From sequence record PZ172995.1: 64,000 bases of DNA; one strand, 5' to 3'. The notes below the pieces were generated by a model. The model worked only from the letters and a program-made list of their open reading frames with translations, ran no database searches and was not told the DNA's origin. Of this stretch, positions 5,537 through 43,231 are shown one piece after another. Each line of letters starts with the position of its first letter. Positions within the stretch are counted from its first letter, which is position 1. Position numbers and translations under genes: made by a program. This DNA comes from a phage.

Positions 5537-5931
5537 TAGCGAATAACCTGTGTGACTTGAATTGCTTCAGTTACGGACAAATCACCTACTTTCTCTTCTT
5601 TGATAAAAGTGAAGGTGAGTTCAACAGGTTCTTGCTCTTCTTGCTCAACTGGAATACCGTTAAGCTCATCAAAGATTGATTGGGTAGTCCAGTCTTCTCC
5701 ACCATCTGGATAGTGGATGGCATAAAGAGGAAACTCTAAATTATACCAAGCAAAAACAGGACAACCGTCTGCATCATCTCGGCATCTGTGGAGGTACGTA
5801 TTTGTACCTTCAAAATGCAAATGAAGATTGCCATTCTTCTCAAATAGAAGAGCATCTCGCAGGTCTAGTTCCTCATTTTCGCTGTAACGACTGACATCAA
5901 CTTTAACGTGGATATGACTGTTATTATTCAT
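5536..5931 (-). CDS. hypothetical protein
   Basis: ORF with GAGAGAGG RBS. Confidence 0.6.
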   Translation of the reverse strand: MNNNSHIHVKVDVSRYSENEELDLRDALLFEKNGNLHLHFEGTNTYLHRCRDDADGCPVFAWYNLEFPLYAIHYPDGGEDWTTQSIFDELNGIPVEQEEQEPVELTFTFIKEEKVGDLSVTEAIQVTQVIR

Positions 5932-6322
5932 AAAAACCTCTCTCTGCTTGTTCGATTTTTGCTCTTAAAGTTTCGCAATGCTGTAAATGGTAGTTAGCTT
6001 CTTGTTCATGTGTTGCTAACTGCCTTTCAAGAACAGTTTTATAGTAACCTGCAAGTTGCTCTTTTGTCAATGGGTGCTCTGAAATAATATCAAGTCCACT
6101 TTCACCAAGAGGATTGAATTGTCCATGCTCATTGACATTGTAAGTCTCAAACTTGAACATACCATTGTTCACAGACTCAATAGGTGACAGTTCAACAAGC
6201 TCTACAGTAAACCGTGTATACACCTTGTCGCCTCTTGAAACTACATTGTTTCCAATGATGCGTACAAGCGAACCATTACGAGTGTACTTAAAAGTCCCAA
6301 AGTCACTAGCCCAAAGCTTCAT
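5924..6322 (-). CDS. hypothetical protein
   Basis: ORF with AAGGAGA RBS. Confidence 0.6.
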   Translation of the reverse strand: MKLWASDFGTFKYTRNGSLVRIIGNNVVSRGDKVYTRFTVELVELSPIESVNNGMFKFETYNVNEHGQFNPLGESGLDIISEHPLTKEQLAGYYKTVLERQLATHEQEANYHLQHCETLRAKIEQAERGFYE

Positions 6323-9731: not shown

Positions 9732-9767
9732 TTGACAGACTCTACAAAGTTGCTCTAAAGTCTGTCA
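9732..9767 (+). promoter_or_regulatory. sigma70-like promoter (TTGACA, 18-nt spacer, TAAAGT) overlapped by a 9-bp inverted repeat
   Basis: TTGACA at 9732-9737; TGACAGACT at 9733-9741 and AGTCTGTCA at 9759-9767. Confidence 0.5.
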
Positions 9768-9800
9768 CATCAAACAACAAATGAGAGAAGAGAGTAAAAT

Positions 9801-11216
9801 ATGAGCGAATTATTTAAACATGCGCACCTTCATGCAGGTCGAACTGAAAATGGTGCTGTAAACCATACTTCATCAATGTCTGCTCTGGTGGACTTTTACA
9901 AAGCCGCTGGCTCAAGCCGTAGCAATGTAGAAATCTTACCAGACCTGTTCTACAAAGCTTTGCGTGAGGATGTTGATGTTGCAGTTCGTATTTTACTGCA
10001 TATGCGAGATGTACGAGAAGGTATGGGTGAGCGTAAAGCTTTCCGAACTGTTTTACTTCAAGCGATTGAAGATAAGGTTTTAGAACCTACACAGGTTCTT
10101 CGCATTATGGATAAGATTGCAGAACTTGGTCGTTTTGATGACTTCAAAATCTTCGTAGGCACTCGTTTTGAGACAGATGCCTTCAAACATTTAGAAGCAG
10201 CATTACTAGACCCTGCAACAGCAGGTTTAGCAGCTAAGTGGTTACCACGAGTAAAACCACGCCACAAACAGTTTGTAAAACGTTTCTGTAAGTTTGCAAA
10301 CTTAAGCGAGAAGGAGTATCGCACACTGTTATCTGCACTGTCTGATACGGTTGAGCAAAAAATCTCTGCTAATGAGTTTGGTAAGATTGACTACAGCAAG
10401 GTTCCTTCACTCGCTGCTGCACGTTACCAAAAACTCTTTAACCGTAAAGATGGGGAACGTTACAAAGCTTACGTTGAGTCACTCTCAAAGGGTGAGGCTA
10501 AGATTAACGCTGGTGCTGTTTACCCATACGATGTGATTAAATCTATCAAGTATGGTAATGCAGATGTGGCTAATGAGCAGTGGAAAGCACTACCAAACTG
10601 GATGGCAGAAGGTGAGAACATCTTGTGTATGACTGATGTTTCAAGTTCAATGTCTTGGGTGAGTCTTGGTTCAATCACTGCCCTTGATGTTGGTGTATCC
10701 CTTGCCTTGTATGTAGCAGAACGCAACACAGGTTGCTTTAAAGATGAGTTAATGGTCTATTCAACAAACCCTCATTTCATTGAACTGAGTGGTGATTTAC
10801 GAAACCGTCATCGTCAGGTAATGCGTCATGTTGAATATGGTTCAACTAACTTACAAGCAGCTTTTGACCGCATTCTTGAAATAGGTAAGAGAAACAACTT
10901 GACTCAGAAAGATATGCCAAGTAAGCTTATTATCTTCTCTGATATGGAGTTTAATCAGGTTGATGGTGCAAATGGTCGTACAAACTTTGAAGCAATTCAG
11001 AGTAAGTACAAAAAAGCTGGATACGAAATGCCACAACTAGTATTCTGGTACTTAGCAAACCGTAATGGTACTTGCGAAGTATCTGTTAAGGATAATGGTG
11101 TAGCAATGGTATCAGGGTTCTCTCCAGCCACTTTAAAAGCTCTGCTTGGTGGTGAGAAGTTTGACCCAATCAGCGTAATGCTCAAAGCAGTAATGATTGA
11201 CCGTTACATCTGGTAA
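9801..11216 (+). CDS. DUF2828-like protein with C-terminal vWA/MIDAS-like motif (possible TROVE/Ro60-like fold)
   Basis: N-terminal RTENGAVNHTSSMSAL motif and DVSSSMS (DxSxS) motif in the 471-aa translation; strong RBS; family assignment from recalled signatures, not a search. Confidence 0.6.
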   Translation: MSELFKHAHLHAGRTENGAVNHTSSMSALVDFYKAAGSSRSNVEILPDLFYKALREDVDVAVRILLHMRDVREGMGERKAFRTVLLQAIEDKVLEPTQVLRIMDKIAELGRFDDFKIFVGTRFETDAFKHLEAALLDPATAGLAAKWLPRVKPRHKQFVKRFCKFANLSEKEYRTLLSALSDTVEQKISANEFGKIDYSKVPSLAAARYQKLFNRKDGERYKAYVESLSKGEAKINAGAVYPYDVIKSIKYGNADVANEQWKALPNWMAEGENILCMTDVSSSMSWVSLGSITALDVGVSLALYVAERNTGCFKDELMVYSTNPHFIELSGDLRNRHRQVMRHVEYGSTNLQAAFDRILEIGKRNNLTQKDMPSKLIIFSDMEFNQVDGANGRTNFEAIQSKYKKAGYEMPQLVFWYLANRNGTCEVSVKDNGVAMVSGFSPATLKALLGGEKFDPISVMLKAVMIDRYIW

Positions 11217-11228
11217 AAAGTTTTAAAA

Positions 11229-11263
11229 AGGGTATTGACAATGTGTTTGATACCCTTTAATAT
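11229..11263 (+). promoter_or_regulatory. sigma70-like promoter (TTGACA, 17 nt, TAATAT) with flanking palindrome, upstream of tRNA array
   Basis: TTGACA 11235-11240, TAATAT 11258-11263; AAGGGTAT / ATACCCTT inverted repeat around the -35. Confidence 0.6.
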
Positions 11264-11324
11264 GTTCTACATAGAAACGAAATGAGAGCTTTTCTAAGAT
11301 ACTGAAAAATATTTTAAAAAGTTC

Positions 11325-11353
11325 TTGACAACCACTAAAAAATAATGTTAAAG
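11325..11353 (+). promoter_or_regulatory. second sigma70-like promoter (TTGACA, 18 nt, TAAAGT) upstream of tRNA array
   Basis: Same -35, spacer and -10 pattern as the promoter at 9732. Confidence 0.5.
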
Positions 11354-11380
11354 TGGTTACATAGAGTTTGAAAAGTTTAT

Positions 11381-11457
11381 CTCTGTTTAGCTCAGCTTGG
11401 TAGAGCGTTCCGTTTGGGGCGGTAAGGCCGGAGGTTCAAGTCCTCCAACAGAGACCA
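11381..11457 (+). tRNA. tRNA-Pro (TGG)
   Basis: Hand-folded cloverleaf: acceptor CTCTGTT/AACAGAG, anticodon loop TTTGGGG, T-arm GGAGG-TTCAAGT-CCTCC, CCA encoded. Confidence 0.75.
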
Positions 11458-11464
11458 AATTAAT

Positions 11465-11542
11465 GTTCCAGTAGACAAAACGGTAAAGTCACCACTCTTT
11501 CAAAGTGGATATTTGAGGGTTCAAATCCCTTCTGGAACGCCA
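11465..11542 (+). tRNA. tRNA-Glu (TTC)
   Basis: Acceptor GTTCCAG/CTGGAAC, anticodon stem CCACT/AGTGG with loop CTTTCAA, T-loop TTCAAAT, CCA encoded. Confidence 0.75.
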
Positions 11543-11547
11543 GTTTT

Positions 11548-11623
11548 GACAGAAGACCAATTACAGCAAACTTAATCTACTCATCTGACACGAAATCGGA
11601 CAAAGAAGATATTTGGTCTGGTC
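11548..11623 (+). ncRNA. conserved hairpin element, copy 1 (basal stem CAGAAGACC / GGTCTGG, loop with CAGCAA)
   Basis: GACAGAAGACCA pairs with TGGTCTGGTC around a loop of about 50 nt; same stem in three further copies. Confidence 0.5.
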
Positions 11624-11632
11624 ATTAAGAAT

Positions 11633-11709
11633 TGCGGGTATAGAGAAAGGGCGTCTCACATGTCTCATTAGCATGGTATCGGCAGGTTCGACTCCTGCAC
11701 CCGCCTCCA
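11633..11709 (+). tRNA. tRNA-Met (CAT), irregular acceptor stem
   Basis: D-stem GAGA/TCTC, anticodon stem CATGT/GCATG with loop CTCATTA, T-arm GCAGG-TTCGACT-CCTGC; acceptor pairing imperfect. Confidence 0.55.
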
Positions 11710-11714
11710 ATTTT

Positions 11715-11778
11715 GCAGAAGACCGTATGCAGCAACAAACTACTTTTTTTGCGGATAAAAGAAAAAACACGGTCTGGC
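11715..11778 (+). ncRNA. conserved hairpin element, copy 2
   Basis: GCAGAAGACCG ... CAGCAA ... CGGTCTGGC. Confidence 0.5.
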
Positions 11779-11788
11779 AATATATTAA

Positions 11789-11865
11789 GGTTAGGAAGCA
11801 CATAAGGTATGTGCGGTCGCCTGTTAAGCGAATGGCACAGGGTTCGAATCCCTGACTAACCGCCA
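11789..11865 (+). tRNA. tRNA-Asn (GTT)
   Basis: D-stem GCAC/GTGC, anticodon loop CTGTTAA, T-arm CAGGG-TTCGAAT-CCCTG, CCA encoded. Confidence 0.7.
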
Positions 11866-11874
11866 AATTTAAAT

Positions 11875-11962
11875 GTGTCGTTATCCCGTAGATGGTAGCG
11901 GTGGGGACTGTAAATCCCTTGTCATTGAGACTCGGTAGGTTCGACTCCTACACGGCACACCA
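11875..11962 (+). tRNA. tRNA-Tyr (GTA), long variable arm
   Basis: Acceptor GTGTCGT/ACGGCAC, anticodon loop CTGTAAA, long variable arm, T-arm GTAGG-TTCGACT-CCTAC, CCA encoded. Confidence 0.7.
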
Positions 11963-11968
11963 AATAAA

Positions 11969-12046
11969 GGTTATGTAGTTTAATCTGGTTAAAATACTCC
12001 CCTGTCACGGGAGATGATGAGGGTTCAAATCCCTTCGTAACCGCCA
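11969..12046 (+). tRNA. tRNA-Asp (GTC)
   Basis: Anticodon stem CTCCC/GGGAG with loop CTGTCAC, T-arm GAGGG-TTCAAAT-CCCTT, CCA encoded. Confidence 0.8.
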
Positions 12047-12129
12047 AATTATAATAAGTATTTCAAAATGATGTTTGAGAGGGCTATTTAGCCCCTCCCT
12101 TAAAGAGTTCTTACGAGTATTCTTTAAAG

Positions 12130-12212
12130 GAGCAGAAGACCAAATTCAGCAAGTACGTATGATATTTTCAAGCCAATTTAATTTTGAAAAAATTTAAAAC
12201 TTGGTCTGGCTC
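12130..12212 (+). ncRNA. conserved hairpin element, copy 3
   Basis: GAGCAGAAGACCAA pairs with TTGGTCTGGCTC; loop contains CAGCAA. Confidence 0.5.
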
Positions 12213-12221
12213 AACAAATTT

Positions 12222-12357
12222 ACAGAAGACCGTTTACAGCAAAACTTAAACAATCTATTTCTCCGGTAAAGAAAAGGCGAAGGTTCGATTCCTTCACTCG
12301 GCAGATGTCGAGTTGGTGTAATGGTAGCACTTAAGATGACAAACAACGGTCTGGTAA
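12222..12357 (+). ncRNA. conserved hairpin element, copy 4, enclosing a tRNA-like module (T-arm hairpin, acceptor-like hairpin, D-arm-like hairpin); candidate Y-RNA-like RNA
   Basis: Basal stem ACAGAAGACCGTT / AACGGTCTGGTA; inside: GAAGG-TTCGATT-CCTTC (12279-12295), ACTCGGC-AGAT-GTCGAGT (12296-12313), GTGT-AATGGTA-GCAC (12316-12330). Confidence 0.45.
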
Positions 12358-12503
12358 TTATCTTTGTAGGTGAGCTATTAAGCTTACTTGTGAGTATGCG
12401 ACCACAAAGGGTGAAAGGGCAAATTCTAGATTTAAACCCAACAAGGCACATCGCTACAGACCTTAAGCAAGTCTGGGTAGCTTATCTACAAAGATAATTT
12501 AAT

Positions 12504-12579
12504 GGAAGTGTAGCAGAATGGTGATGCGGCAGACTTTTAATCTGACAGGCGATGGGTTCGAATCCCTCCACTTCTACCA
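12504..12579 (+). tRNA. tRNA-Lys (TTT)
   Basis: Acceptor GGAAGTG/CACTTCT, anticodon loop CTTTTAA, T-loop TTCGAAT, CCA encoded; paralogous to the Lys(CTT) tRNA at 13820. Confidence 0.7.
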
Positions 12580-12583
12580 ATAT

Positions 12584-12660
12584 GGTTCAGTCGCAGATAA
12601 GGTAATGCAGGGGTCTCATAAGCCCTATGAATGTGGGTTCGATTCCCATCTGAACCTCCA
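12584..12660 (+). tRNA. tRNA with CAT anticodon (Met or lysidine-Ile)
   Basis: Acceptor GGTTCAG/CTGAACC, anticodon loop CTCATAA, T-arm GTGGG-TTCGATT-CCCAT, CCA encoded. Confidence 0.7.
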
Positions 12661-12661
12661 A

Positions 12662-12737
12662 GCTGGTATAGTTAAGAAGGTTATAACACTCCCCTGATAA
12701 GGGAATATCGGTGGTTCGATTCCACCTACCAGTACCA
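12662..12737 (+). tRNA. tRNA-Ile (GAT)
   Basis: D-stem GTTA/TAAC, anticodon loop CTGATAA, T-arm GGTGG-TTCGATT-CCACC, CCA encoded. Confidence 0.75.
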
Positions 12738-12752
12738 ATTTCAATAAAGTTG

Positions 12753-12781
12753 TTGACATTGATATGTGACTATTTTATAGT
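12753..12781 (+). promoter_or_regulatory. sigma70-like promoter (TTGACA, 17 nt, TATAGT) inside the tRNA array
   Basis: TTGACA 12753-12758, TATAGT 12776-12781; downstream about 300 nt has no tRNA or ORF. Confidence 0.55.
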
Positions 12782-12832
12782 AACTGAAAATGATTCAGCA
12801 TATGTATAATTCAAACACCAATACATGAGCGT

Positions 12833-12904
12833 TAGACGTAACACAATGTGGGGAAATTTGTTGTACATATTCTGAATAGTTTTCGTTGCGTAGCGTCTAT
12901 TTTG
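12833..12904 (+). terminator. putative structured element ending in a T-run (possible sRNA 3' end)
   Basis: TAGACG ... CGTCTA stem enclosing about 55 nt, followed by TTTTGC. Confidence 0.3.
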
Positions 12905-13074
12905 CAAATTTAAAATAAATGCAAACGACAATGTTTTTCTGGCAGTAGCTTGATAGGCTAAACACCAGTGAGGTCTTCCAATCCCTCATCAAAGAATTTG
13001 GCGTACTAGCCCACGGTATGATTAATAAGGTGGGCATCTTTAAGGGCTTTCTAAGAGAGTCTTTAAAGATTAAT

Positions 13075-13151
13075 GCACCCTTAGTTCAATTGGATAGAGC
13101 AACGGTCTTCTAAATCGTTAGTTACAGGTTCGAATCCTGTAGGGTGTGCCA
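13075..13151 (+). tRNA. tRNA-Arg (TCT)
   Basis: Acceptor GCACCCT/AGGGTGT, anticodon loop CTTCTAA, T-arm ACAGG-TTCGAAT-CCTGT, CCA encoded. Confidence 0.75.
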
Positions 13152-13293
13152 AATAGTTAGCAGATTGCTTAGACGACCTTATCGGGTCTCCGCGTAAGGA
13201 GGTGGTCTGTATCTCATGTTTTCCAGAACATGTAAATAATCTGAGAAGGGGCTTTACAGTGTTGCGAAAATACGGTAAGCTTCGAATTATAGT

Positions 13294-13376
13294 GTGGGAC
13301 GATGTTAAGACTCTAAGGCATGAGCAACGGCCTCCAAAACCGTTTCAAAGGGGTTCAACTCCTCCGTCCCATGCCA
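13294..13376 (+). tRNA. tRNA-Trp (CCA)-like, atypical length and D-region
   Basis: Acceptor GTGGGAC/GTCCCAT, anticodon loop CTCCAAA, T-loop TTCAACT, CCA encoded; about 7 nt longer than canonical. Confidence 0.45.
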
Positions 13377-13389
13377 AAGTCTTATTAGG

Positions 13390-13477
13390 GGTAGGTAGCG
13401 GCTAATGGCAGCCAAACAGTCTTGAAAACTGTTGCAACTGTAGAGATACGGTGAGGGTTCGACTCCTTTACTTACCA
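13390..13477 (+). tRNA. tRNA-Ser (TGA), long variable arm
   Basis: Acceptor GGTAGGT/ACTTACC, anticodon stem ACAGT/ACTGT with loop CTTGAAA, variable arm about 20 nt, T-loop TTCGACT. Confidence 0.7.
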
Positions 13478-13634
13478 CCTAATAAGATTTTACACCGTCC
13501 ATGCTTGCTCGCATTTTCGGTTTATCCCTCGTGTATTGTCGTACACACTGATAAAGCACCTAGTAGGTGTCACGGAGAAGAGATAATATCAAGCTCTCCA
13601 AAGGTTCTAGTCACCGGATTAAACAAGACTATGC

Positions 13635-13656
13635 AAAGACCAATTTAGGTCTTTTT
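13635..13656 (+). terminator. putative Rho-independent terminator
   Basis: AAAGACC-AATTTA-GGTCTTT followed by TTT. Confidence 0.45.
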
Positions 13657-13735
13657 AGAGGGCTTCTAAGGTTATTACAGCTTGTTGTGGAACCTTGTTG
13701 CTTAGGTTCTTAGAAGTTCTCTAAAAAGATTTAAT

Positions 13736-13812
13736 GCACCTATAGCCCAACTGGTAGAGGCAGCAGACTTAGAATCTGCTCAGTGTGAGTTCGAATCTCT
13801 CTAGGTGTACCA
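13736..13812 (+). tRNA. tRNA with TAG anticodon (Leu by anticodon), short variable arm
   Basis: Acceptor GCACCTA/TAGGTGT, anticodon stem GCAGA/TCTGC with loop CTTAGAA, T-loop TTCGAAT, A73, CCA encoded. Confidence 0.65.
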
Positions 13813-13819
13813 AATTAAT

Positions 13820-13895
13820 GCAGGTGTAGCAAAATGGTTATGCGGCTGACTCTTAATCAGTAAGACGATGGGTTCAATTCCCTCCACCTGTACCA
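13820..13895 (+). tRNA. tRNA-Lys (CTT)
   Basis: Acceptor GCAGGTG/CACCTGT, anticodon loop CTCTTAA, T-loop TTCAATT, CCA encoded. Confidence 0.7.
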
Positions 13896-13901
13896 AACAT
13901 T

Positions 13902-13977
13902 GGGGTCATAGTTTATATGGTTAAAATTCGAGTTTTGCAAACTTGGGAACTGAGTTCAATTCTCAGTGACTCCACCA
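13902..13977 (+). tRNA. tRNA-Ala (TGC)
   Basis: Acceptor GGGGTCA/TGACTCC, anticodon loop TTTGCAA, T-arm CTGAG-TTCAATT-CTCAG, CCA encoded. Confidence 0.7.
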
Positions 13978-13983
13978 ATTAGT

Positions 13984-14058
13984 GCATCCATAGTTTAAAC
14001 GGGAAAATTACAGTCTTCCAAACTGAGGTTGAGGGTTCGATTCCCTCTGGATGCTCCA
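13984..14058 (+). tRNA. tRNA-Gly (TCC)
   Basis: Acceptor GCATCCA/TGGATGC, anticodon loop CTTCCAA, T-loop TTCGATT, CCA encoded. Confidence 0.75.
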
Positions 14059-14065
14059 AATTAAT

Positions 14066-14141
14066 GCTCCTATCGTATAATTGGCTATTACGGTTGCCTT
14101 GTAAGTAACTTATCAGGGTTCGAATCCTTGTGGGAGCACCA
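14066..14141 (+). tRNA. tRNA-Thr (TGT)
   Basis: Acceptor GCTCCTA/TGGGAGC, anticodon loop CTTGTAA, T-arm CAGGG-TTCGAAT-CCTTG, CCA encoded. Confidence 0.7.
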
Positions 14142-14238
14142 ATTTAGAGGTCAAGTGAAAGACCGCTTTGAGTCAACTGAAGACCGTAACAAATCCCACG
14201 GAGTTGAGTTAGCGGCACAACTTCAGACCTCTTTCCAC

Positions 14239-14313
14239 ACTCGCTTAGTTTATATGGTAAAACATCACCCTTACAAGATGAAGAAAAAGGTTCAAGTCCT
14301 TTAGTGAGTACCA
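14239..14313 (+). tRNA. tRNA-Val (TAC)
   Basis: D-stem GTTT/AAAC, anticodon loop CTTACAA, T-arm AAAGG-TTCAAGT-CCTTT, CCA encoded. Confidence 0.7.
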
Positions 14314-14314
14314 T

Positions 14315-14392
14315 GTTCCAGTATCCCAATTGGCAGAGGATGCAAGCTCAAACCTTGCACTAGTGACGGTTCGAATCCGTCTTGGAACACCA
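14315..14392 (+). tRNA. tRNA with CAA anticodon (Leu by anticodon), short variable arm
   Basis: Acceptor GTTCCAG/TTGGAAC, anticodon stem GCAAG/CTTGC with loop CTCAAAC, T-arm GACGG-TTCGAAT-CCGTC, A73, CCA encoded. Confidence 0.65.
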
Positions 14393-14397
14393 ATTTT

Positions 14398-14473
14398 GCA
14401 GGATTAGTTCAAATGGATAGAGCAACAGTCTACGAAGCTGTTAATAGGGGTTCGAGTCCCTTATCCTGCGCCA
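14398..14473 (+). tRNA. tRNA-Arg (ACG)
   Basis: Acceptor GCAGGAT/ATCCTGC, anticodon loop CTACGAA, T-loop TTCGAGT, CCA encoded. Confidence 0.75.
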
Positions 14474-14491
14474 GATAAGTAAGAGTGATTT

Positions 14492-14734
14492 ATGCAAACA
14501 TTAATCGTCGTTGAACATGAAAATTCCAATAGCATTGAGTTTGTAAGGGTTCCCACTATAGATACCCACATTTTCTTGAAAGTAGGCTGGGAATGTGACC
14601 CAATAAGAGTAGAAAAATTTATTGGTCATTACTTTGGTGGAAGACAACTTAAAAGTGTTAATTTTGAGACAATGTTACCAGAAAACTCAGAAACAAATAA
14701 TAATGTTTACCTCCTTACAAGGATTAGACAATGA
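14492..14734 (+). CDS. hypothetical protein encoded inside the tRNA array
   Basis: ORF with RBS; ATGA overlap with the next gene. Confidence 0.5.
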   Translation: MQTLIVVEHENSNSIEFVRVPTIDTHIFLKVGWECDPIRVEKFIGHYFGGRQLKSVNFETMLPENSETNNNVYLLTRIRQ

Positions 14735-15288
14735 GATATTTGAAGTATGTTTCATGGATTTTCTTAGCTTTGCTAGAGCCATTTGCAGCAATCTTAGCAG
14801 TCATCTTAGCACCTTTTGTAGTTCTATTCTACAGTGAGAAGAGAGGACACTTACCTTTCGGCTTCAGATGGATGGAAACATATGATAACCCAATTGATGG
14901 TGATAAAGGTCATGTCGAACGATGGGCTAAGATTAGAAAGATTGGTAAGCTTGGTATCTATATGCAGAGAGTTGGTTGGCTCTGGAGAAACAAAGCTTAT
15001 AACTTCTCTTACCATGTGTTAGGAAGAGATGTAAAAGATGTTACTAAGTGGAAAGGTAATATCAATGTAAGTTCTAACCCTGAAGATAATCAGACAGGTT
15101 ATCTCCTAATGTGGAACAGTAATGCTTGGGGATTATTCGCTTTTATCCCATCAATTAAACTCTTTGGTAAGCAATTCTACTGGAGAATTTATGTTGGATG
15201 GAAACTTAAAAGTGTTGTTCCAAAAGAAAGAGCATTCTCAAGGGAAAGAGTTATGTTGGCATTCTTTATTCATCCACTGAGAAAGTAA
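14731..15288 (+). CDS. hypothetical Trp-rich membrane protein encoded inside the tRNA array
   Basis: N-terminal hydrophobic helix WIFLALLEPFAAILAVILAPFVVLF in the 185-aa translation. Confidence 0.6.
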   Translation: MRYLKYVSWIFLALLEPFAAILAVILAPFVVLFYSEKRGHLPFGFRWMETYDNPIDGDKGHVERWAKIRKIGKLGIYMQRVGWLWRNKAYNFSYHVLGRDVKDVTKWKGNINVSSNPEDNQTGYLLMWNSNAWGLFAFIPSIKLFGKQFYWRIYVGWKLKSVVPKERAFSRERVMLAFFIHPLRK

Positions 15289-15296
15289 AGATTTAA

Positions 15297-15372
15297 AGGG
15301 GATTAGTTTACAAGGTTAAAACCTCGGTCTTTGAAATCGAAGAAGTTGGTTCAATTCCAACATCCCCCGCCA
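15297..15372 (+). tRNA. tRNA-Gln (TTG)
   Basis: Anticodon stem TCGGT/ATCGA with loop CTTTGAA, T-arm GTTGG-TTCAATT-CCAAC, CCA encoded. Confidence 0.7.
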
Positions 15373-15374
15373 AT

Positions 15375-15453
15375 GCTCCATTACTCCAATTGGCAGAGAG
15401 GCCAGACTTAAAATCTGTGTTATGTATCGGTTCGAATCCGATATGGAGTACCA
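15375..15453 (+). tRNA. tRNA with TAA anticodon (Leu by anticodon), short variable arm
   Basis: Acceptor GCTCCAT/ATGGAGT, anticodon loop CTTAAAA, T-arm ATCGG-TTCGAAT-CCGAT, A73, CCA encoded. Confidence 0.65.
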
Positions 15454-15458
15454 AATTT

Positions 15459-15534
15459 AGCGGTATAGCATAACTGGCAATGCAGCAGTCTCTGAAGCTG
15501 TCTTATTAAGGTTCAAATCCTTATGCCGCTGCCA
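15459..15534 (+). tRNA. tRNA-Gln (CTG)
   Basis: D-stem GCAT/ATGC, anticodon loop CTCTGAA, T-arm TAAGG-TTCAAAT-CCTTA, CCA encoded. Confidence 0.7.
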
Positions 15535-15565
15535 CTTCTAAGGATTCTTACGAGAGTCCTTAAAT

Positions 15566-15641
15566 GTGGCCTTATCATAAATGGTAATGACCCATGCTGT
15601 GAACATGGTCTATACGGGTTCAAATCCCGTAGGTCACCCCA
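15566..15641 (+). tRNA. tRNA-His (GTG)
   Basis: D-stem TCAT/ATGA, anticodon stem CCATG/CATGG with loop CTGTGAA, T-arm ACGGG-TTCAAAT-CCCGT, CCA encoded. Confidence 0.75.
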
Positions 15642-15646
15642 ATTTA

Positions 15647-15723
15647 TAGTCCAAGTAGCTTATATGGTTAAAGCGCGTGTCTGAAAAACATGAGAAGAGG
15701 GTTCAAATCCCACTGGACTACCA
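15647..15723 (+). tRNA. tRNA-Phe (GAA)
   Basis: Acceptor TAGTCCA/TGGACTA, anticodon stem CGTGT/ACATG with loop CTGAAAA, T-loop TTCAAAT; linker lengths slightly irregular. Confidence 0.65.
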
Positions 15724-15739
15724 ATTTCAAAGGTGCTTA

Positions 15740-16474
15740 ATGAAAGAGATGACAGGACAAGGTAAGGAGATTTTTAATCTCTTAAAAACCGGTAGAGGGT
15801 TTTCTAATCCCCTTATTACTGGTGCAGCAGTTCTCGGTGGAACCGTAGCTGCCTCTACATCACTTGTAAGCTCTATTAGCTCTGTAACAGACCCTACAAT
15901 AAAGGATAAACTTGTTGCCGCTGGACTTACAACAGTTCTGCTTAACAGCTTTACAACGAGTCTGACAAGCACTACATCCACCACTAAGACATTGACAGAT
16001 TACGGTCAAAAATCAATTGATGAGTTTTCATCACGTATGCAGGTAGCAAAAGGATATTCCAATGTTATGGGTGCAGCAGGAGAGCAAGTTGGTTGTACAC
16101 CATTTAGTGGTATTATGGGTGTTGCTACAGAATATGGTCAAAAAGCTATTGACACGATTAACAACACGTTAGACAGTGTTAACGGCGTGTTAAGTGACTT
16201 ACAGGATGCTATTGATAAAGGTCTTGATACTGTTTCTGATTTAGCTAACCAAGCTGTTAGCAAGATTAATGAAGGTATCTCGAAGATTACAGCTTATGCA
16301 GATGAAGTTGTGCAGATGATTGAAGAAGAAGCTGCCCTTATTGCAGAGTACCTTAAAACGAATATCAATGGGTTCTTAGCAGGTATTTTACCAGACTGGT
16401 TTGATGATGCTTGTAAAACTGGTGTGATTGACACTATTGCAACACCAGAAATGAAGAACGCATTACAGAAATAA
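15740..16474 (+). CDS. hypothetical Ser/Thr-rich protein encoded inside the tRNA array
   Basis: Track start 15677 lies inside tRNA-Phe; ATG at 15740 has AAAGGTG RBS; low-complexity S/T region then a helical C-terminal half. Confidence 0.6.
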   Translation: MKEMTGQGKEIFNLLKTGRGFSNPLITGAAVLGGTVAASTSLVSSISSVTDPTIKDKLVAAGLTTVLLNSFTTSLTSTTSTTKTLTDYGQKSIDEFSSRMQVAKGYSNVMGAAGEQVGCTPFSGIMGVATEYGQKAIDTINNTLDSVNGVLSDLQDAIDKGLDTVSDLANQAVSKINEGISKITAYADEVVQMIEEEAALIAEYLKTNINGFLAGILPDWFDDACKTGVIDTIATPEMKNALQK

Positions 16475-16475
16475 T

Positions 16476-16568
16476 GGAAGATTAACCCTAAAAGGTAAGG
16501 GAGCAGTTTGCTAAACTGCCAGTAGCTGAGAAATCGGTGTACCAGTTCAAGTCTGGTATCTTCCCCCA
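16476..16568 (+). tRNA. tRNA-Ser (GCT), long variable arm
   Basis: Acceptor GGAAGAT/ATCTTCC, anticodon stem GCAGT/ACTGC with loop TTGCTAA, variable arm about 21 nt, T-arm ACCAG-TTCAAGT-CTGGT, CCA encoded. Confidence 0.75.
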
Positions 16569-16572
16569 ATTT

Positions 16573-16648
16573 GAATCCGTGACAGAAATGGCTATGTGCC
16601 TGTCTGCAAAACAGGTTTATAAGGGTTCGAGTCCCTTCGGATTCTCCA
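16573..16648 (+). tRNA. tRNA-Cys (GCA)
   Basis: Acceptor GAATCCG/CGGATTC, anticodon stem CCTGT/ACAGG with loop CTGCAAA, T-arm AAGGG-TTCGAGT-CCCTT, CCA encoded. Confidence 0.8.
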
Positions 16649-42871: not shown

Positions 42872-43231
42872 TTATGGGAACAGACACTTGATGTCATCAT
42901 TTTTGAAAACGAAACTTGTGTAGTTGTGACCATCAACATCCAGCCAAACAGCCTGAACATCGACACCATCAAGATTGTGGTAAAGCTCTTTGATGAAGTG
43001 GTCTTTCACAATCTGGCTGCTAGTGGTTTCCAGCTTAATGTTTGAGATTGCTGAACCTACAGCCATATAACCCATTACACGTTTCTTCTCAGTATGCTTA
43101 ATCTTACCATCTTTGTAAGCCATAATGAGATTGGAAAGAATCTTCACACCATAATACTTTTCAAGGTGAGTAGGTACACCATAAAAGCCTAATGCGAAGT
43201 TTTCAGAGTGGATAATGTTTTCACGTTTCAT
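42872..43231 (-). CDS. hypothetical protein
   Basis: ORF in operon. Confidence 0.55.
   Translation of the reverse strand: MKRENIIHSENFALGFYGVPTHLEKYYGVKILSNLIMAYKDGKIKHTEKKRVMGYMAVGSAISNIKLETTSSQIVKDHFIKELYHNLDGVDVQAVWLDVDGHNYTSFVFKNDDIKCLFP

What the first reader, a model, noticed from the sequence alone, without database searches (positions are those of the whole stretch)
11548..12476. Family of conserved hairpin elements (CAGAAGACC ... CAGCAA ... GGTCTGG) between tRNA genes
Four elements (11548-11623, 11715-11778, 12130-12212, 12222-12357) share the same basal stem halves and a CAGCAA motif in the loop while the loop sequence otherwise diverges. A miniature version, CAGACC-TTAAGCAA-GTCTGG, sits at 12457-12476 and a divergent copy with CTGAAGACCG at about 14160-14232. 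Stem conservation with loop divergence suggests a structured RNA family (processing signals, small RNAs or protein-binding sites) rather than chance.
Basis: seen in the sequence. Interest (0 to 1): 0.65.

Follow-up and report, generated by a model that had tools for sequence, protein, structure and literature searches.

The report
Phage Y-RNA-like partners of Ro60-like protein
The four hairpins between the tRNA genes are a conserved family of small structured RNAs that travel with a neighbouring Ro60-like RNA-binding protein gene in many phages, and they share their stem, end sequences and loop motif with the unexplained "Class I" RNAs of the social amoeba Dictyostelium.

Summary
Four of the six reported copies are real members of one RNA family: E1 11547-11624, E2 11713-11780, E3 12130-12212 and E4 12220-12357. 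The "mini" copy (12457-12476) and the "divergent" copy (about 14160-14232) are parts of two other conserved hairpin RNAs.

Each member has a 7-bp helix starting A-G and ending C-U-G. Three nucleotides and then CAGCAA follow the 5' arm, and the apical part varies. E4 carries a permuted tRNA-like domain (T arm, closed acceptor hairpin, D arm).

The gene just upstream (9801-11216, Pfam DUF2828 plus vWA) is predicted to fold like Ro60. The same RNA architecture lies next to homologues of this gene, always on the gene's strand, in 50 of 74 distant phage loci, with abundant compensatory changes.

The best reading is that these are Y-RNA-like ligands of a divergent Ro60-like protein. Binding is inferred and was not tested. 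Neither Rfam's YrlA model nor any other Rfam family reaches its threshold.

The architecture (AAG start, stem, UUACAGCAA, CUG end) also matches Dictyostelium Class I RNAs, which were reported as unique to dictyostelids. I could not establish whether Dictyostelium has a DUF2828 protein.

The parts
9801..11216 (+). Gene for a 471-aa Ro60-like protein (helical TROVE-like ring domain plus C-terminal vWA domain with a DxSxS MIDAS motif). It is the proposed protein partner of the RNAs.
   Evidence: Pfam DUF2828 (E 2e-29) plus DUF7788 (E 1e-43), with weak VWA_2. PHROG 850 'RNA-binding protein'. AF2 model with pLDDT 86. The top 12 Foldseek PDB hits are all Ro60/TROVE, full length, E 1e-8 to 1e-6, TM 0.5-0.66. 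D279, S281 and S283 are invariant. 30% identity to a plant DUF2828 protein, E 8e-46.
9732..9761 (+). Promoter-like site upstream of the Ro60-like gene.
   Evidence: TTGACA-18-TAAAGT, 10 of 12 matches. This is a consensus match only.
11235..11354 (+). Two promoter-like sites (11235-11263 and 11325-11354) that would drive the tRNA and small-RNA cluster.
   Evidence: 10 of 12 matches each. No + strand terminator is predicted inside the cluster.
11547..11624 (+). Element E1 (short class). Outer helix 11547-11550/11621-11624, inner helix 11554-11560/11613-11619, CAGCAA at 11564-11569.
   Evidence: Fold. Model R1 50.3 bits (this element was in the seed). Conserved in Ounavirinae. Rfam Dicty_Class_I_RNA 17.5 bits, full-length alignment. 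Lies 4 nt after tRNA-Glu and 8 nt before tRNA-Met.
11713..11780 (+). Element E2 (short class). Outer helix 11713-11716/11777-11780, inner helix 11720-11726/11769-11775, CAGCAA at 11730-11735.
   Evidence: Fold. R1 49.8 bits (in the seed). In orthologues the outer helix switches UUGC/GCAA to UUAC/GUAA, a compensatory change. Rfam Dicty_Class_I_RNA 17.4 bits.
12130..12212 (+). Element E3 (short class). Outer helix 12130-12133/12209-12212, inner helix 12137-12143/12201-12207, CAGCAA at 12147-12152.
   Evidence: Fold. R1 39.9 bits (in the seed). Conserved in Ounavirinae.
12220..12357 (+). Element E4 (long class). Basal helices as in E1-E3, CAGCAA at 12237-12242. The apical part is a permuted tRNA-like domain: extra hairpin 12258-12274, T arm 12279-12295 (GAAGG-UUCGAUU-CCUUC), closed acceptor-like hairpin 12296-12313, D arm 12315-12331.
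   Evidence: Fold. Consensus structure of 8 orthologues has 36 pairs, with compensatory changes in the acceptor-like stem. R1 25.0 bits, E about 9e-4, not in the seed. Partial Rfam tRNA hit of 22 bits over the T arm. The same layout occurs in 15 elements of other phages, where 11 of 12 T-arm and acceptor pairs show compensatory changes.

Best explanation
E1-E4 are Y-RNA-like small non-coding RNAs that serve as ligands of the Ro60-like DUF2828-vWA protein encoded just upstream (9801-11216).

Proposed course of events:
1. They are transcribed with the tRNAs from the promoter-like sites at 11235 and 11325.
2. They occupy 'tRNA slots' in the array, 3-9 nt from the neighbouring tRNAs, and are set free by the enzymes that process those tRNAs.
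3. Each folds so that its two ends pair.
4. The base of the stem (A-G...C-U-G) and the single-stranded YUA-CAGCAA beside the 5' arm form the docking site for the ring-shaped protein.
5. The variable apical module gives each RNA its own specificity. In E4 it mimics the elbow of a tRNA (T arm, D arm, closed acceptor stem). By analogy with YrlA/Ro60/PNPase particles it would recruit or occupy a host tRNA- or RNA-handling enzyme.
6. The resulting particle would help the phage against host defence.

Shown here: the RNA architecture and its covariation; its linkage, strand and proximity to the gene across distant phages; and the predicted Ro60-like fold of the protein.

Inferred: physical binding, processing into discrete RNAs, and every downstream function.
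For: Protein:
- The AF2 model (pLDDT 86) matches only Ro60/TROVE structures over its full length. These include Thermus phage phiLo Ro60, Xenopus Ro60 bound to RNA, and D. radiodurans Rsr.
- Homologues in cluster-L mycobacteriophages are annotated 'Ro-like RNA binding protein'.
- UniRef names eukaryotic members 'TROVE domain-containing protein'.

Linkage:
- In 72 distant loci holding a 40-47%-identical homologue, CAGCAA on the gene's strand has an in-register 7-bp helix in 114 of 419 occurrences. Background is 7.5%, and the opposite strand gives 20 of 312.
- 87 of the 114 are followed by G.
- This is the top-ranked hexamer of all hexamers on both strands, z = 15 and 35.
- Model R1 finds 62 hits at E <= 0.01 in 854 kb. 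All are on the gene's strand, in 50 of 74 loci, and about 36 of them are not seed sequences.

Structure:
- In 34 distinct elements, 6 of 7 helix pairs show changes on both sides, 103 cells in all. Sliding the 3' partner by 1-3 columns drops pairing from 97.5% to 31-44%.
- Features that were not used for selection are conserved: 5' AA-AGR, spacer UUA, 3' YCU-G.

Y-RNA likeness:
- The order T arm, closed acceptor hairpin, D arm inside a stem formed by the two ends is the YrlA layout described by Chen 2014 (PMC4201824).
- Long elements of other phages hit Rfam YrlA below threshold at 39-43.5 bits, E 1e-5 to 2.5e-6: LeBron L081 4511-4619, L063 5494-5578, L015 5307-5407.

Protein recognition:
- In six loci a minimal copy of the hairpin sits in the 5' UTR of the protein gene with its 3' arm abutting the Shine-Dalgarno sequence, for example L020 1760-1799 ...TAATTCTGGAGGTAAACTATG. 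This is the layout of an autoregulatory operator.

Literature:
- In the Felixounavirus Bas63, gp130 is Ro60-like and counters the ppl defence system. The authors only guessed that some downstream 'tRNA genes' might be Y RNAs (PMC11482910).
- Phage phiLo Ro60 binds two phage-encoded Y-like RNAs and host PNPase (PMC12135203).
Against: - No binding, expression or processing data were available. Everything about function is by analogy.
- The known Ro-binding motifs are absent (GNCGAAN0-1G in YrlA, GGUCCGA in metazoan Y RNAs).
- Rfam YrlA does not hit E4 even at E <= 10.
- The protein has no sequence-level match to solved Ro60 structures and no Pfam TROVE hit.
- Helix pairing in the family alignment is partly by construction, because elements were picked by having a helix.
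- Many loci are related to one another, so counts are not independent.
- About a third of the distant loci show no model hit. Some have short flanks, and the model penalises the long class.
- Linkage to the gene is also linkage to tRNA clusters, because the gene sits in tRNA clusters in most phages. LeBron, where the Rfam scan found no tRNA genes in the 7.4-kb stretch, and the 5'-UTR copies argue that the gene is the relevant neighbour.
Confidence: 0.7

Rival explanations
1. The hairpins are tRNA mimics or decoys that act on their own, for example by soaking up or misdirecting host tRNA-targeting defence nucleases or tRNA-modifying enzymes. They are only co-inherited with the DUF2828 gene as part of one anti-defence module and are not bound by it.
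For: E4 and at least 15 long elements in other phages mimic the tRNA elbow. In other phages, several short elements carry anticodon-stem-loop look-alikes. One is UUGACUUUUAAUCAA, which from my own knowledge is the E. coli tRNA-Lys(UUU) anticodon arm; it occurs in three unrelated loci. Loops of Cys-GCA and Thr-UGU type also occur. One element encloses a complete tRNA-Thr.
Against: This does not explain why the invariant part is the non-tRNA module (AG-stem, UUA-CAGCAA, CUG). It does not explain the minimal copies over the gene's own ribosome-binding site. It also does not explain why the module tracks the gene's strand in 62 of 62 model hits. The window's own E1-E3 have no anticodon-like loops.
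Confidence: 0.12
2. They are passive spacers or processing signals of the polycistronic tRNA precursor (RNase E, RNase III or RNase P guide hairpins) with no life of their own after cleavage.
For: They lie between tRNA genes at tRNA-like spacing, and the cluster has promoters but no internal terminators. The neighbouring region 12356-12503 has a helix of about 24 bp that does look like an RNase III-type substrate.
Against: The same motif occurs downstream of the gene in mycobacteriophage LeBron, where the Rfam scan found no tRNA genes in the 7.4-kb stretch, and in 5' UTRs of the gene in other phages. A single-stranded 9-nt motif kept from enterobacterial phages to mycobacteriophages is not expected of a host RNase site. 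E4's tRNA-like domain is maintained by compensatory changes.
Confidence: 0.1
3. They are decaying tRNA genes or remnants of tRNA-gene rearrangements, or a mobile repeat, kept only by recent common descent.
For: E4 contains T-arm and D-arm sequences. Some genome annotations call this spot 'putative tRNA pseudogene' or 'tRNA-OTHER'.
Against: E1-E3 have no tRNA features. In E4 the acceptor-like stem changes completely between genera yet stays paired: ACUCGGC/GUCGAGU, ACCCUUC/GAAGGGU and ACACG/CGUGU. The family spans phages whose partner proteins are only 31-47% identical. There are no target-site duplications or terminal repeats, and only one strand is used.
Confidence: 0.03

Closest known systems
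Bacterial and phage Y RNAs of the YrlA/YrlB type with Ro60 (Rsr): Rfam RF02553; Chen et al. 2014, PMC4201824; phage phiLo Yrl1/Yrl2, PMC12135203
   Same: - They are encoded next to, and on the strand of, a ring-plus-vWA Ro60-type protein gene.
- There are several RNAs per locus.
- The two ends pair into a stem that carries a conserved sequence beside the 5' arm.
- One RNA per locus (E4) carries a T arm, a closed acceptor hairpin and a D arm in the YrlA order. The others (E1-E3) are short, like YrlB.
- Long elements of other phages reach 39-43.5 bits on the YrlA model.
   Different: - The protein belongs to Pfam DUF2828/DUF7788, not TROVE, and resembles Ro60 only at the level of predicted fold.
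- The conserved RNA motif is YUA-CAGCAA with an AG...CUG stem base, instead of GNCGAAN0-1G or CGAA.
- No element reaches the Rfam YrlA threshold, and the window's E4 gets no YrlA hit at all.
- Here the RNAs are embedded in a tRNA gene array.
Class I RNAs of dictyostelid social amoebae: Rfam RF01414; Kjellin et al. 2021, PMC7919456
   Same: Point-by-point match of the features the authors use to define the class:
[quoted passage not shown]
- There are 6 bp counted from a conserved G:C pair.
- The start is conserved as AAG and the end as CUG(U).
- The motif (C)CUUACAGCAA lies directly after the 5' arm.
- The rest is variable and A-rich before the 3' arm.
- The size is about 45-80 nt.

The phage consensus, derived independently, is aA-AGRnUnn-UUA-CAGCAA...AAA-nnAnYCU-G. 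Rfam's Class I model aligns full-length exactly on E1, E2, E4 and L048 5802-5860.
   Different: - Scores are 14-25 bits against a threshold of 41.5.
- The unpaired spacer before CAGCAA is 3 nt in most phage copies and 4 nt in dictyostelids.
- Phage copies have an extra outer A:U pair, and in this window a further 4-bp helix.
- They are made from a tRNA operon, not from DUSE promoters.
- The only protein known to bind Class I RNA directly is an RRM protein, Rnp1A/CIBP.
- A DUF2828 protein in Dictyostelium was looked for and not seen, but the listings were top-N only.
Permuted and other tRNA-like RNAs (permuted tRNA genes, tmRNA)
   Same: E4 has the 3' half of a tRNA (T arm, 3' acceptor strand) upstream of the 5' half (5' acceptor strand, D arm).
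   Different: There is no anticodon arm and no free acceptor end: the acceptor stem is closed by a 4-nt loop. ARAGORN does not call a tRNA or tmRNA here, and the Rfam tRNA score is 22 against a threshold of 29. The basal stem is the family's CAGCAA module.

Membership tests
Y RNA / YrlA (Rfam RF02553) | Encoded within a few kb of, and on the same strand as, a Ro60-type (HEAT-ring plus vWA) protein gene | tested here: met
   E1-E4 start 331-1004 nt after the stop codon of ORF 9801-11216, on the same strand. The predicted fold matches Ro60. The same holds in 50 of 74 distant loci.
Y RNA / YrlA (Rfam RF02553) | 5' and 3' ends pair into a stem that carries the protein-binding site | tested here: met
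   Predicted folds and covariation. The true RNA ends are unknown.
Y RNA / YrlA (Rfam RF02553) | Conserved Ro-binding sequence GNCGAAN0-1G (YrlA/YrlB) or GGUCCGA bulged helix (metazoa) | tested here: not met
   The family consensus is AGRnUnn-UUA-CAGCAA. The window has CAGAAGACC, which resembles NCGAAG only with an inserted A, and that resemblance is absent in other phages.
Y RNA / YrlA (Rfam RF02553) | tRNA-like domain: T arm, closed acceptor stem, D arm | tested here: met
   Met in E4 and in 15 long elements of other phages. E1-E3 lack it, as YrlB does.
Y RNA / YrlA (Rfam RF02553) | Score at or above Rfam's gathering threshold (69 bits) | tested here: not met
   No YrlA hit on E4 at E <= 10. 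Related long elements score 29.6-43.5 bits. None passes at the gathering threshold in 10 loci.
Y RNA / YrlA (Rfam RF02553) | Physically bound by the Ro60-type protein | not testable with these tools
   This needs RIP/CLIP or EMSA.
Dictyostelid Class I RNA (Rfam RF01414) | Short stem joining the 5' and 3' ends, conserved in structure but not in sequence | tested here: met
   There are 6 bp from the conserved G:C pair in both groups.
Dictyostelid Class I RNA (Rfam RF01414) | 11-nt motif CCUUACAGCAA directly after the 5' arm | tested here: met
   In the window: UUACAGCAA in E1 and E4, AUGCAGCAA in E2, AUUCAGCAA in E3. Family frequencies are s2 U 85%, s3 A 48%, then CAGCAA, which was the selection criterion. 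The spacer is one nt shorter than in dictyostelids.
Dictyostelid Class I RNA (Rfam RF01414) | Conserved termini: start AAG, end CUGU, with G pairing to C | tested here: met
   Phage consensus: A 67%, A 65%, G 80% ... C 77%, U 67%, G 78%. These positions were not used for selection. The window has GAAGACC...GGUCUGG.
Dictyostelid Class I RNA (Rfam RF01414) | Score at or above Rfam's gathering threshold (41.5 bits) | tested here: not met
   17.5, 17.4 and 14.3 bits in the window, and 24.7 bits on L048.
Dictyostelid Class I RNA (Rfam RF01414) | DUSE promoter about 60 nt upstream; separate gene loci | tested here: not met
   The elements lie inside a bacterial-type tRNA operon with sigma-70-like promoters. 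A eukaryotic promoter element is not expected in a phage.
Ro60 / TROVE proteins (for ORF 9801-11216) | Ring of alpha-helical repeats followed by a vWA domain with a MIDAS motif | tested here: met
   AF2 model plus Foldseek. D279, S281, S283, T349 and D381 are invariant. This is a prediction, not a solved structure.
Ro60 / TROVE proteins (for ORF 9801-11216) | Sequence-level membership (Pfam TROVE PF05731, or a match to solved Ro60 sequences) | tested here: not met
   Pfam gives DUF2828 and DUF7788 only. There is no PDB sequence hit with either the single sequence or the profile.
tRNA | Cloverleaf with anticodon arm and free acceptor end, detectable by tRNA finders | tested here: not met
   ARAGORN calls nothing at 11547-11624, 11713-11780 or 12130-12357. 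The Rfam tRNA model gives a 22-bit partial hit on E4 only.

The most novel reading that the evidence does not exclude
The phage RNAs and the Class I RNAs of Dictyostelium are the same kind of RNA. The shared module would be a stem closed by AAG...CUG with UUACAGCAA beside its 5' arm, recognised by DUF2828/TROVE-like proteins.

That protein family extends from phages of Gram-negative and Gram-positive bacteria to a giant virus, plants, fungi, alveolates and heterolobosean amoebae.

If so, Class I RNAs are not a dictyostelid invention tied to multicellularity. They would be the local representatives of an ancient, widely spread branch of Ro/Y-RNA particles, possibly acquired from viruses. It would also follow that plants and other eukaryotes with DUF2828 genes have undiscovered RNAs of this type.
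Probability: 0.4. Interest if true: 0.9.

Novelty: new variant of a known kind. Interest (0 to 1): 0.78.

Why it matters
1. It supplies concrete candidate RNA partners, with coordinates and a testable binding motif, for a phage Ro60-like protein that a knockout screen in the Felixounavirus Bas63 identified as a counter to the ppl defence system. The authors of that screen could only guess that some 'tRNA genes' might be Y RNAs.

2. It defines an RNA family absent from Rfam. It occurs in most phage loci that carry this gene, from enterobacterial Felix-O1-like phages to metagenomic IMG/VR viral contigs and mycobacteriophages. This opens the DUF2828 branch of the Ro60 superfamily to study. That branch holds thousands of protein clusters, including plant genes of unknown function.

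3. The match to Dictyostelium Class I RNAs gives a specific hypothesis for RNAs whose molecular role has been open since 2004, and it questions the claim that they are unique to dictyostelids.

4. The modular design is a fixed docking stem plus exchangeable tRNA-elbow or anticodon-loop mimics. This suggests a general way for phages to present tRNA look-alikes to host enzymes.

Tried and rejected
- Rfam at gathering thresholds found only tRNAs in the window and in 10 distant loci.
- Sequence and profile searches of the protein against PDB sequences found nothing relevant. NCBIfam and PADLOC gave nothing.
- The exact motif pair AGAAGACC...GGTCTG occurs only in Felix-like loci. This forced a switch to k-mer enrichment, which revealed ACAGCAA.
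- A first helix criterion (at least 6 bp, any of three spacers) was too permissive: background 30-44% against 42-52% for CAGCAA. It was replaced by a fixed-register 7-bp test.
- RNAalifold on the MAFFT alignment of long elements recovered only the T arm and acceptor stems, because the 3' arms were misaligned by one column. The basal helix was therefore tested on the short-element alignment instead.
- The AlphaFold-database fold library was not available.
- Literature searches for DUF2828 or its accessions, and for the RNA motif, found nothing on function. Avesson 2011, which holds the Class I pull-down list, and Aspegren 2004 could not be read.
- I tried four routes to find a Dictyostelium DUF2828 protein:
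  - a plant-like query, typed from my own memory of plant DUF2828 sequences rather than taken from a retrieved record;
  - a 50%-clustered library search;
  - two cluster look-ups;
  - a Naegleria query.
  These showed many eukaryotic members but no dictyostelid. Because only top-ranked hits are listed, this is not evidence of absence.
- I considered a true permuted tRNA gene for E4 and rejected it. There is no anticodon arm, the acceptor end is closed, and the basal module is shared with non-tRNA elements.
Full report
**Context**

The window is a Felix-O1-like phage, about 98% identical to Escherichia phage HMD-P10 and other Felixounavirus genomes. The finding lies at the start of a cluster of 26 tRNA genes at 11381-16648. 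Rfam at its curated thresholds sees only tRNAs there.

**Observation**

Reading the sequence and counting the motifs confirms four elements with CAGAAGACC...CAGCAA...GGTCTGG at the stated places. AGAAGACC occurs 9 times against 2.6 expected, and four of these are clustered on the + strand and paired with GGTCTGG.

All four fold alike:
- an outer 4-bp helix that differs in sequence between copies but always pairs;
- an internal loop AGA/G;
- a helix AGACCNN/NNGGUCU;
- three nucleotides and then CAGCAA.

Folding energies alone are unimpressive (z -1.3 to -2.2).

The four elements are kept at the same positions in 14 other Ounavirinae genomes from three genera. Compensatory changes include E2's outer helix UUGC/GCAA becoming UUAC/GUAA.

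The 'miniature' hairpin at 12457-12476 and the stretch at 14160-14232 lack CAGCAA and are not found by the family model.
- The first is part of a separate ~148-nt RNA at 12356-12503, closed by a helix of about 24 bp with four compensatory positions.
- The second is part of another conserved long hairpin at 14142-14237.

**Element 4 is tRNA-like but permuted**

After CAGCAA come, in order:
- a small hairpin;
- a T arm (GAAGG-UUCGAUU-CCUUC, 12279-12295);
- a 7-bp hairpin in the place of the acceptor stem (ACUCGGC-AGAU-GUCGAGU);
- a D arm (12315-12331);
- the 3' strand of the basal helix.

Across genera the acceptor-like stem changes completely yet stays paired: ACCCUUC/GAAGGGU in Moogle, and ACACG/CGUGU in Sf17 and SUSP1. 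ARAGORN calls no tRNA here.

**The neighbouring gene**

ORF 9801-11216 ends 331 nt before E1.
- It matches Pfam DUF2828 and DUF7788, with weak VWA_2, and PHROG 850 'RNA-binding protein'.
- It has no sequence-level hit to solved structures.
- An AlphaFold model built on 32 homologues (pLDDT 86, pTM 0.87) matches Ro60/TROVE proteins and nothing else over its full length. These are phage phiLo Ro60 (9kop, 9l5y), Xenopus Ro60 with RNA (1yvp, 2i91), human complexes (9nfa) and Deinococcus Rsr (2nvo), with E 1e-8 to 1e-6 and TM 0.5-0.66. vWA-only matches follow far behind.
- The MIDAS residues of the vWA domain are invariant.

Homologues occur in 710 phage records. Hosts include enterobacteria, Vibrio, Aeromonas, Campylobacter, Listeria, Staphylococcus, Enterococcus, Bacillus and Mycobacterium. 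In the mycobacteriophages the homologues are annotated 'Ro-like RNA binding protein'.

**The RNA travels with the gene**

I fetched 80 viral loci encoding homologues. Eight are Felix-like and 72 are distant, at 40-47% identity.

- The exact window motif is confined to the Felix-like loci.
- Among 8-mers within 1.2 kb downstream of the gene, TACAGCAA/ACAGCAAA stood out, present in about 31 of the 72 distant loci.
- Inspection showed a common architecture: a 7-bp helix, three nucleotides, CAGCAA, an apical region of either 23-48 or about 85-135 nt, the 3' arm, then G.

A fixed-register test over all positions of the 72 loci gave these results:
- CAGCAA on the gene's strand has such a helix in 114 of 419 cases (27%).
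- Background is 7.5%, and the other strand gives 20 of 312.
- 87 of the 114 are followed by G.
- Among all hexamers on both strands this is the top-ranked one (z 15 and 35).

The consensus of 104 non-redundant elements is aA-AGRnUnn-UUA-CAGCAA-a...AAA-nnAnYCU-G. The interior helix positions use all four Watson-Crick pairs about equally.

On a MAFFT alignment of 34 distinct short elements:
- 6 of 7 pairs show double changes, 103 cells in all;
- the G:C pair at position 2 is invariant;
- sliding the partner by 1-3 columns drops pairing from 97.5% to 31-44%.

Pairing itself is partly by construction, because elements were chosen for having a helix. The conserved flanks and the enrichment test are independent of that choice.

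A covariance model from this alignment finds 62 hits at E <= 0.01 in 854 kb of 74 loci. All 62 are on the gene's strand, they fall in 50 loci, and about 36 are not seed sequences.

**Long class**

At least 15 non-redundant long elements from other phages carry the same permuted tRNA-like domain. RNAalifold on 16 sequences finds T-arm and acceptor-like helices in which 11 of 12 pairs have compensatory changes.

Rfam's YrlA model hits several of them below threshold, against a threshold of 69 bits:
- LeBron L081 4511-4619 at 39.8 bits;
- L063 5494-5578 at 43.5 bits;
- L015 5307-5407 at 39.1 bits;
- L040 5865-5927 at 39.2 bits.

In mycobacteriophage LeBron, three CAGCAA hairpins follow the 'Ro-like' gene gp53. 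The Rfam scan found no tRNA genes in that 7.4-kb stretch.

**Interpretation**

This is the anatomy of Ro60/Y-RNA systems as described for bacteria and some phages:
- several small RNAs sit beside the Ro60 gene;
- their ends pair into a stem bearing a conserved motif near the 5' arm;
- one of them carries a T/acceptor/D tRNA mimic (Chen 2014; phiLo).

Both the protein branch and the RNA motif differ from the described systems. Chen et al. searched only genomes annotated with a TROVE domain and found GNCGAAN0-1G. Here the protein is DUF2828 and the motif is UUACAGCAA with an AG...CUG base.

For the Felixounavirus Bas63, a knockout screen found the orthologous gp130 to be Ro60-like and to counter the ppl defence system. 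That work only speculated that some downstream tRNA genes might be Y RNAs.

Support for direct recognition comes from six loci where a minimal hairpin lies in the gene's own 5' UTR with its 3' arm touching the Shine-Dalgarno sequence. This is the usual design of an autoregulatory operator.

In the window, promoter-like sites at 11235 and 11325 and the lack of internal terminators fit co-transcription with the tRNAs. Spacing of 3-9 nt to the neighbouring tRNAs fits release by tRNA processing.

Binding, processing and function remain inferred.

**An unexpected relative**

When small stretches were scanned permissively, Rfam's model for Dictyostelium Class I RNAs (RF01414) aligned full-length on four elements:
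- E1 at 17.5 bits and E2 at 17.4 bits;
- E4 at 14.3 bits;
- L048 5802-5860 at 24.7 bits.

All are below the 41.5-bit threshold, and each alone is insignificant.

The published definition of Class I RNAs nevertheless matches the independently derived phage consensus point by point:
- a short stem joining the ends, with compensatory changes;
- a conserved start AAG and end CUGU, with the G pairing to the C;
- an 11-nt motif CCUUACAGCAA directly after the 5' arm;
- a variable remainder.

Sequences from the paper's supplement show 6 bp from the terminal G:C pair, four unpaired nucleotides (CUUA or AUCA), CAGCAA, and a 3' CUG. The phage RNAs show 6 bp from the G:C pair plus an outer A:U, three nucleotides (UUA), CAGCAA, and a 3' CUG. 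Both have an A-rich run before the 3' arm.

**The protein family beyond phages**

- The phage protein is 30% identical to a plant DUF2828 protein over 362 residues, E 8e-46.
- The family has more than 6000 clusters at 50% identity.
- Named members include many plants, Acetabularia, Chromera and Vitrella ('TROVE domain-containing protein'), zoopagomycete and other fungi, Naegleria and Willaertia, a mite, and Pacmanvirus. Some plant entries are named after mimivirus L728.
- I did not see a dictyostelid member, but only top-ranked hits are listed.

Whether Dictyostelium has such a protein is therefore open. The link is a hypothesis.

**Rivals**

- Free-standing tRNA decoys are plausible for the apical modules. 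Anticodon-loop look-alikes occur in other phages. This reading does not explain the invariant non-tRNA module or the operator-like copies.
- Passive processing hairpins do not explain LeBron or the 5'-UTR copies.
- tRNA decay does not explain the compensatory changes.

**Verdict**

The family is real and strongly linked to a Ro60-like gene. It is best described as a new variant of the Ro/Y-RNA theme that Rfam does not capture. It may be related to Dictyostelium Class I RNAs.

Noticed in passing
window 12356-12503: A separate ~148-nt structured RNA lies between E4 and tRNA-Lys. Its 5' and 3' ends form a helix of about 24 bp with four compensatory positions between Felixounavirus and the Moogle, Sf17 and SUSP1 genomes.
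   Followed up: partly
window 14142-14237: A conserved long hairpin lies between tRNA-Thr and tRNA-Val. The outer helix is AGAGGUC/GACCUCU, with nested helices inside. It has no CAGCAA and is not a member of the family.
   Followed up: partly
L010 9795-9862, L048 5797-5863, L063 5750-5821; also L015 4726-4787, L050 5638-5711 and 5839-5923, L077, L081 4424-4485: Several short elements of other phages carry an apical hairpin that looks like an anticodon stem-loop (7-nt loop, U at position 2, purine at position 6). Three unrelated loci have UUGACUUUUAAUCAA, which from my own knowledge is the anticodon arm of E. coli tRNA-Lys(UUU). Others mimic Cys-GCA, Thr-UGU/GGU and His-GUG loops. This suggests decoys or baits for anticodon-directed enzymes. 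The window's own E1-E3 do not show it.
   Followed up: partly
L076 5734-5833: A complete, non-permuted tRNA-Thr(UGU) (52.9 bits; ARAGORN 5753-5824) is enclosed in a CAGCAA hairpin (AGGUUAG-UUU-CAGCAA ... CUAACCU-G). The docking stem can therefore carry a whole tRNA.
   Followed up: partly
L012 5950-5990, L018 5946-5989, L020 1760-1799, L027 2855-2894, L046 about 5950-5985, L053 about 5903-5937: Minimal CAGCAA hairpins (loops of 7-14 nt) lie in the 5' UTR of the DUF2828 gene, with the 3' arm and its CUG directly abutting the Shine-Dalgarno sequence. This looks like translational autoregulation. No such copy lies upstream of the gene in the window.
   Followed up: partly
window 9735-9772: An 8-bp inverted repeat GACAGACU...AGUCUGUC overlaps the promoter-like site of the Ro60-like gene (TTGACA at 9732). 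It shares CAGAC/GUCUG with the 'mini' hairpin. It may be an operator or a 5' hairpin of the mRNA.
   Followed up: no
window 12786-13074 and 13296-13370: These are non-tRNA stretches inside the tRNA cluster with weak Rfam matches: permuted tmRNA 22 bits, tmRNA E 0.004, and a tRNA-Sec model at 23 bits for a tRNA-like sequence that ARAGORN does not call. They may be further small RNAs or odd tRNAs.
   Followed up: no
window 43010-43069 (- strand): A marginal hit of the family model (17.4 bits, E about 0.08) far from the cluster and on the other strand. It is probably chance.
   Followed up: no
L051 1353-1676; L040 11696-11922; L063 12103-12310: Other RNAs near DUF2828 genes in metagenomic phages: a permuted tmRNA (71.7 bits, above threshold), and two group I intron matches (L040 at 71.5 bits is above the 50-bit threshold; L063 at 36.7 bits is below it).
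   Followed up: no
L009-L080 in general: In most distant phages the DUF2828 gene sits inside or at the edge of a large tRNA gene cluster. The association of a Ro60-like gene with phage tRNA arrays seems general.
   Followed up: partly
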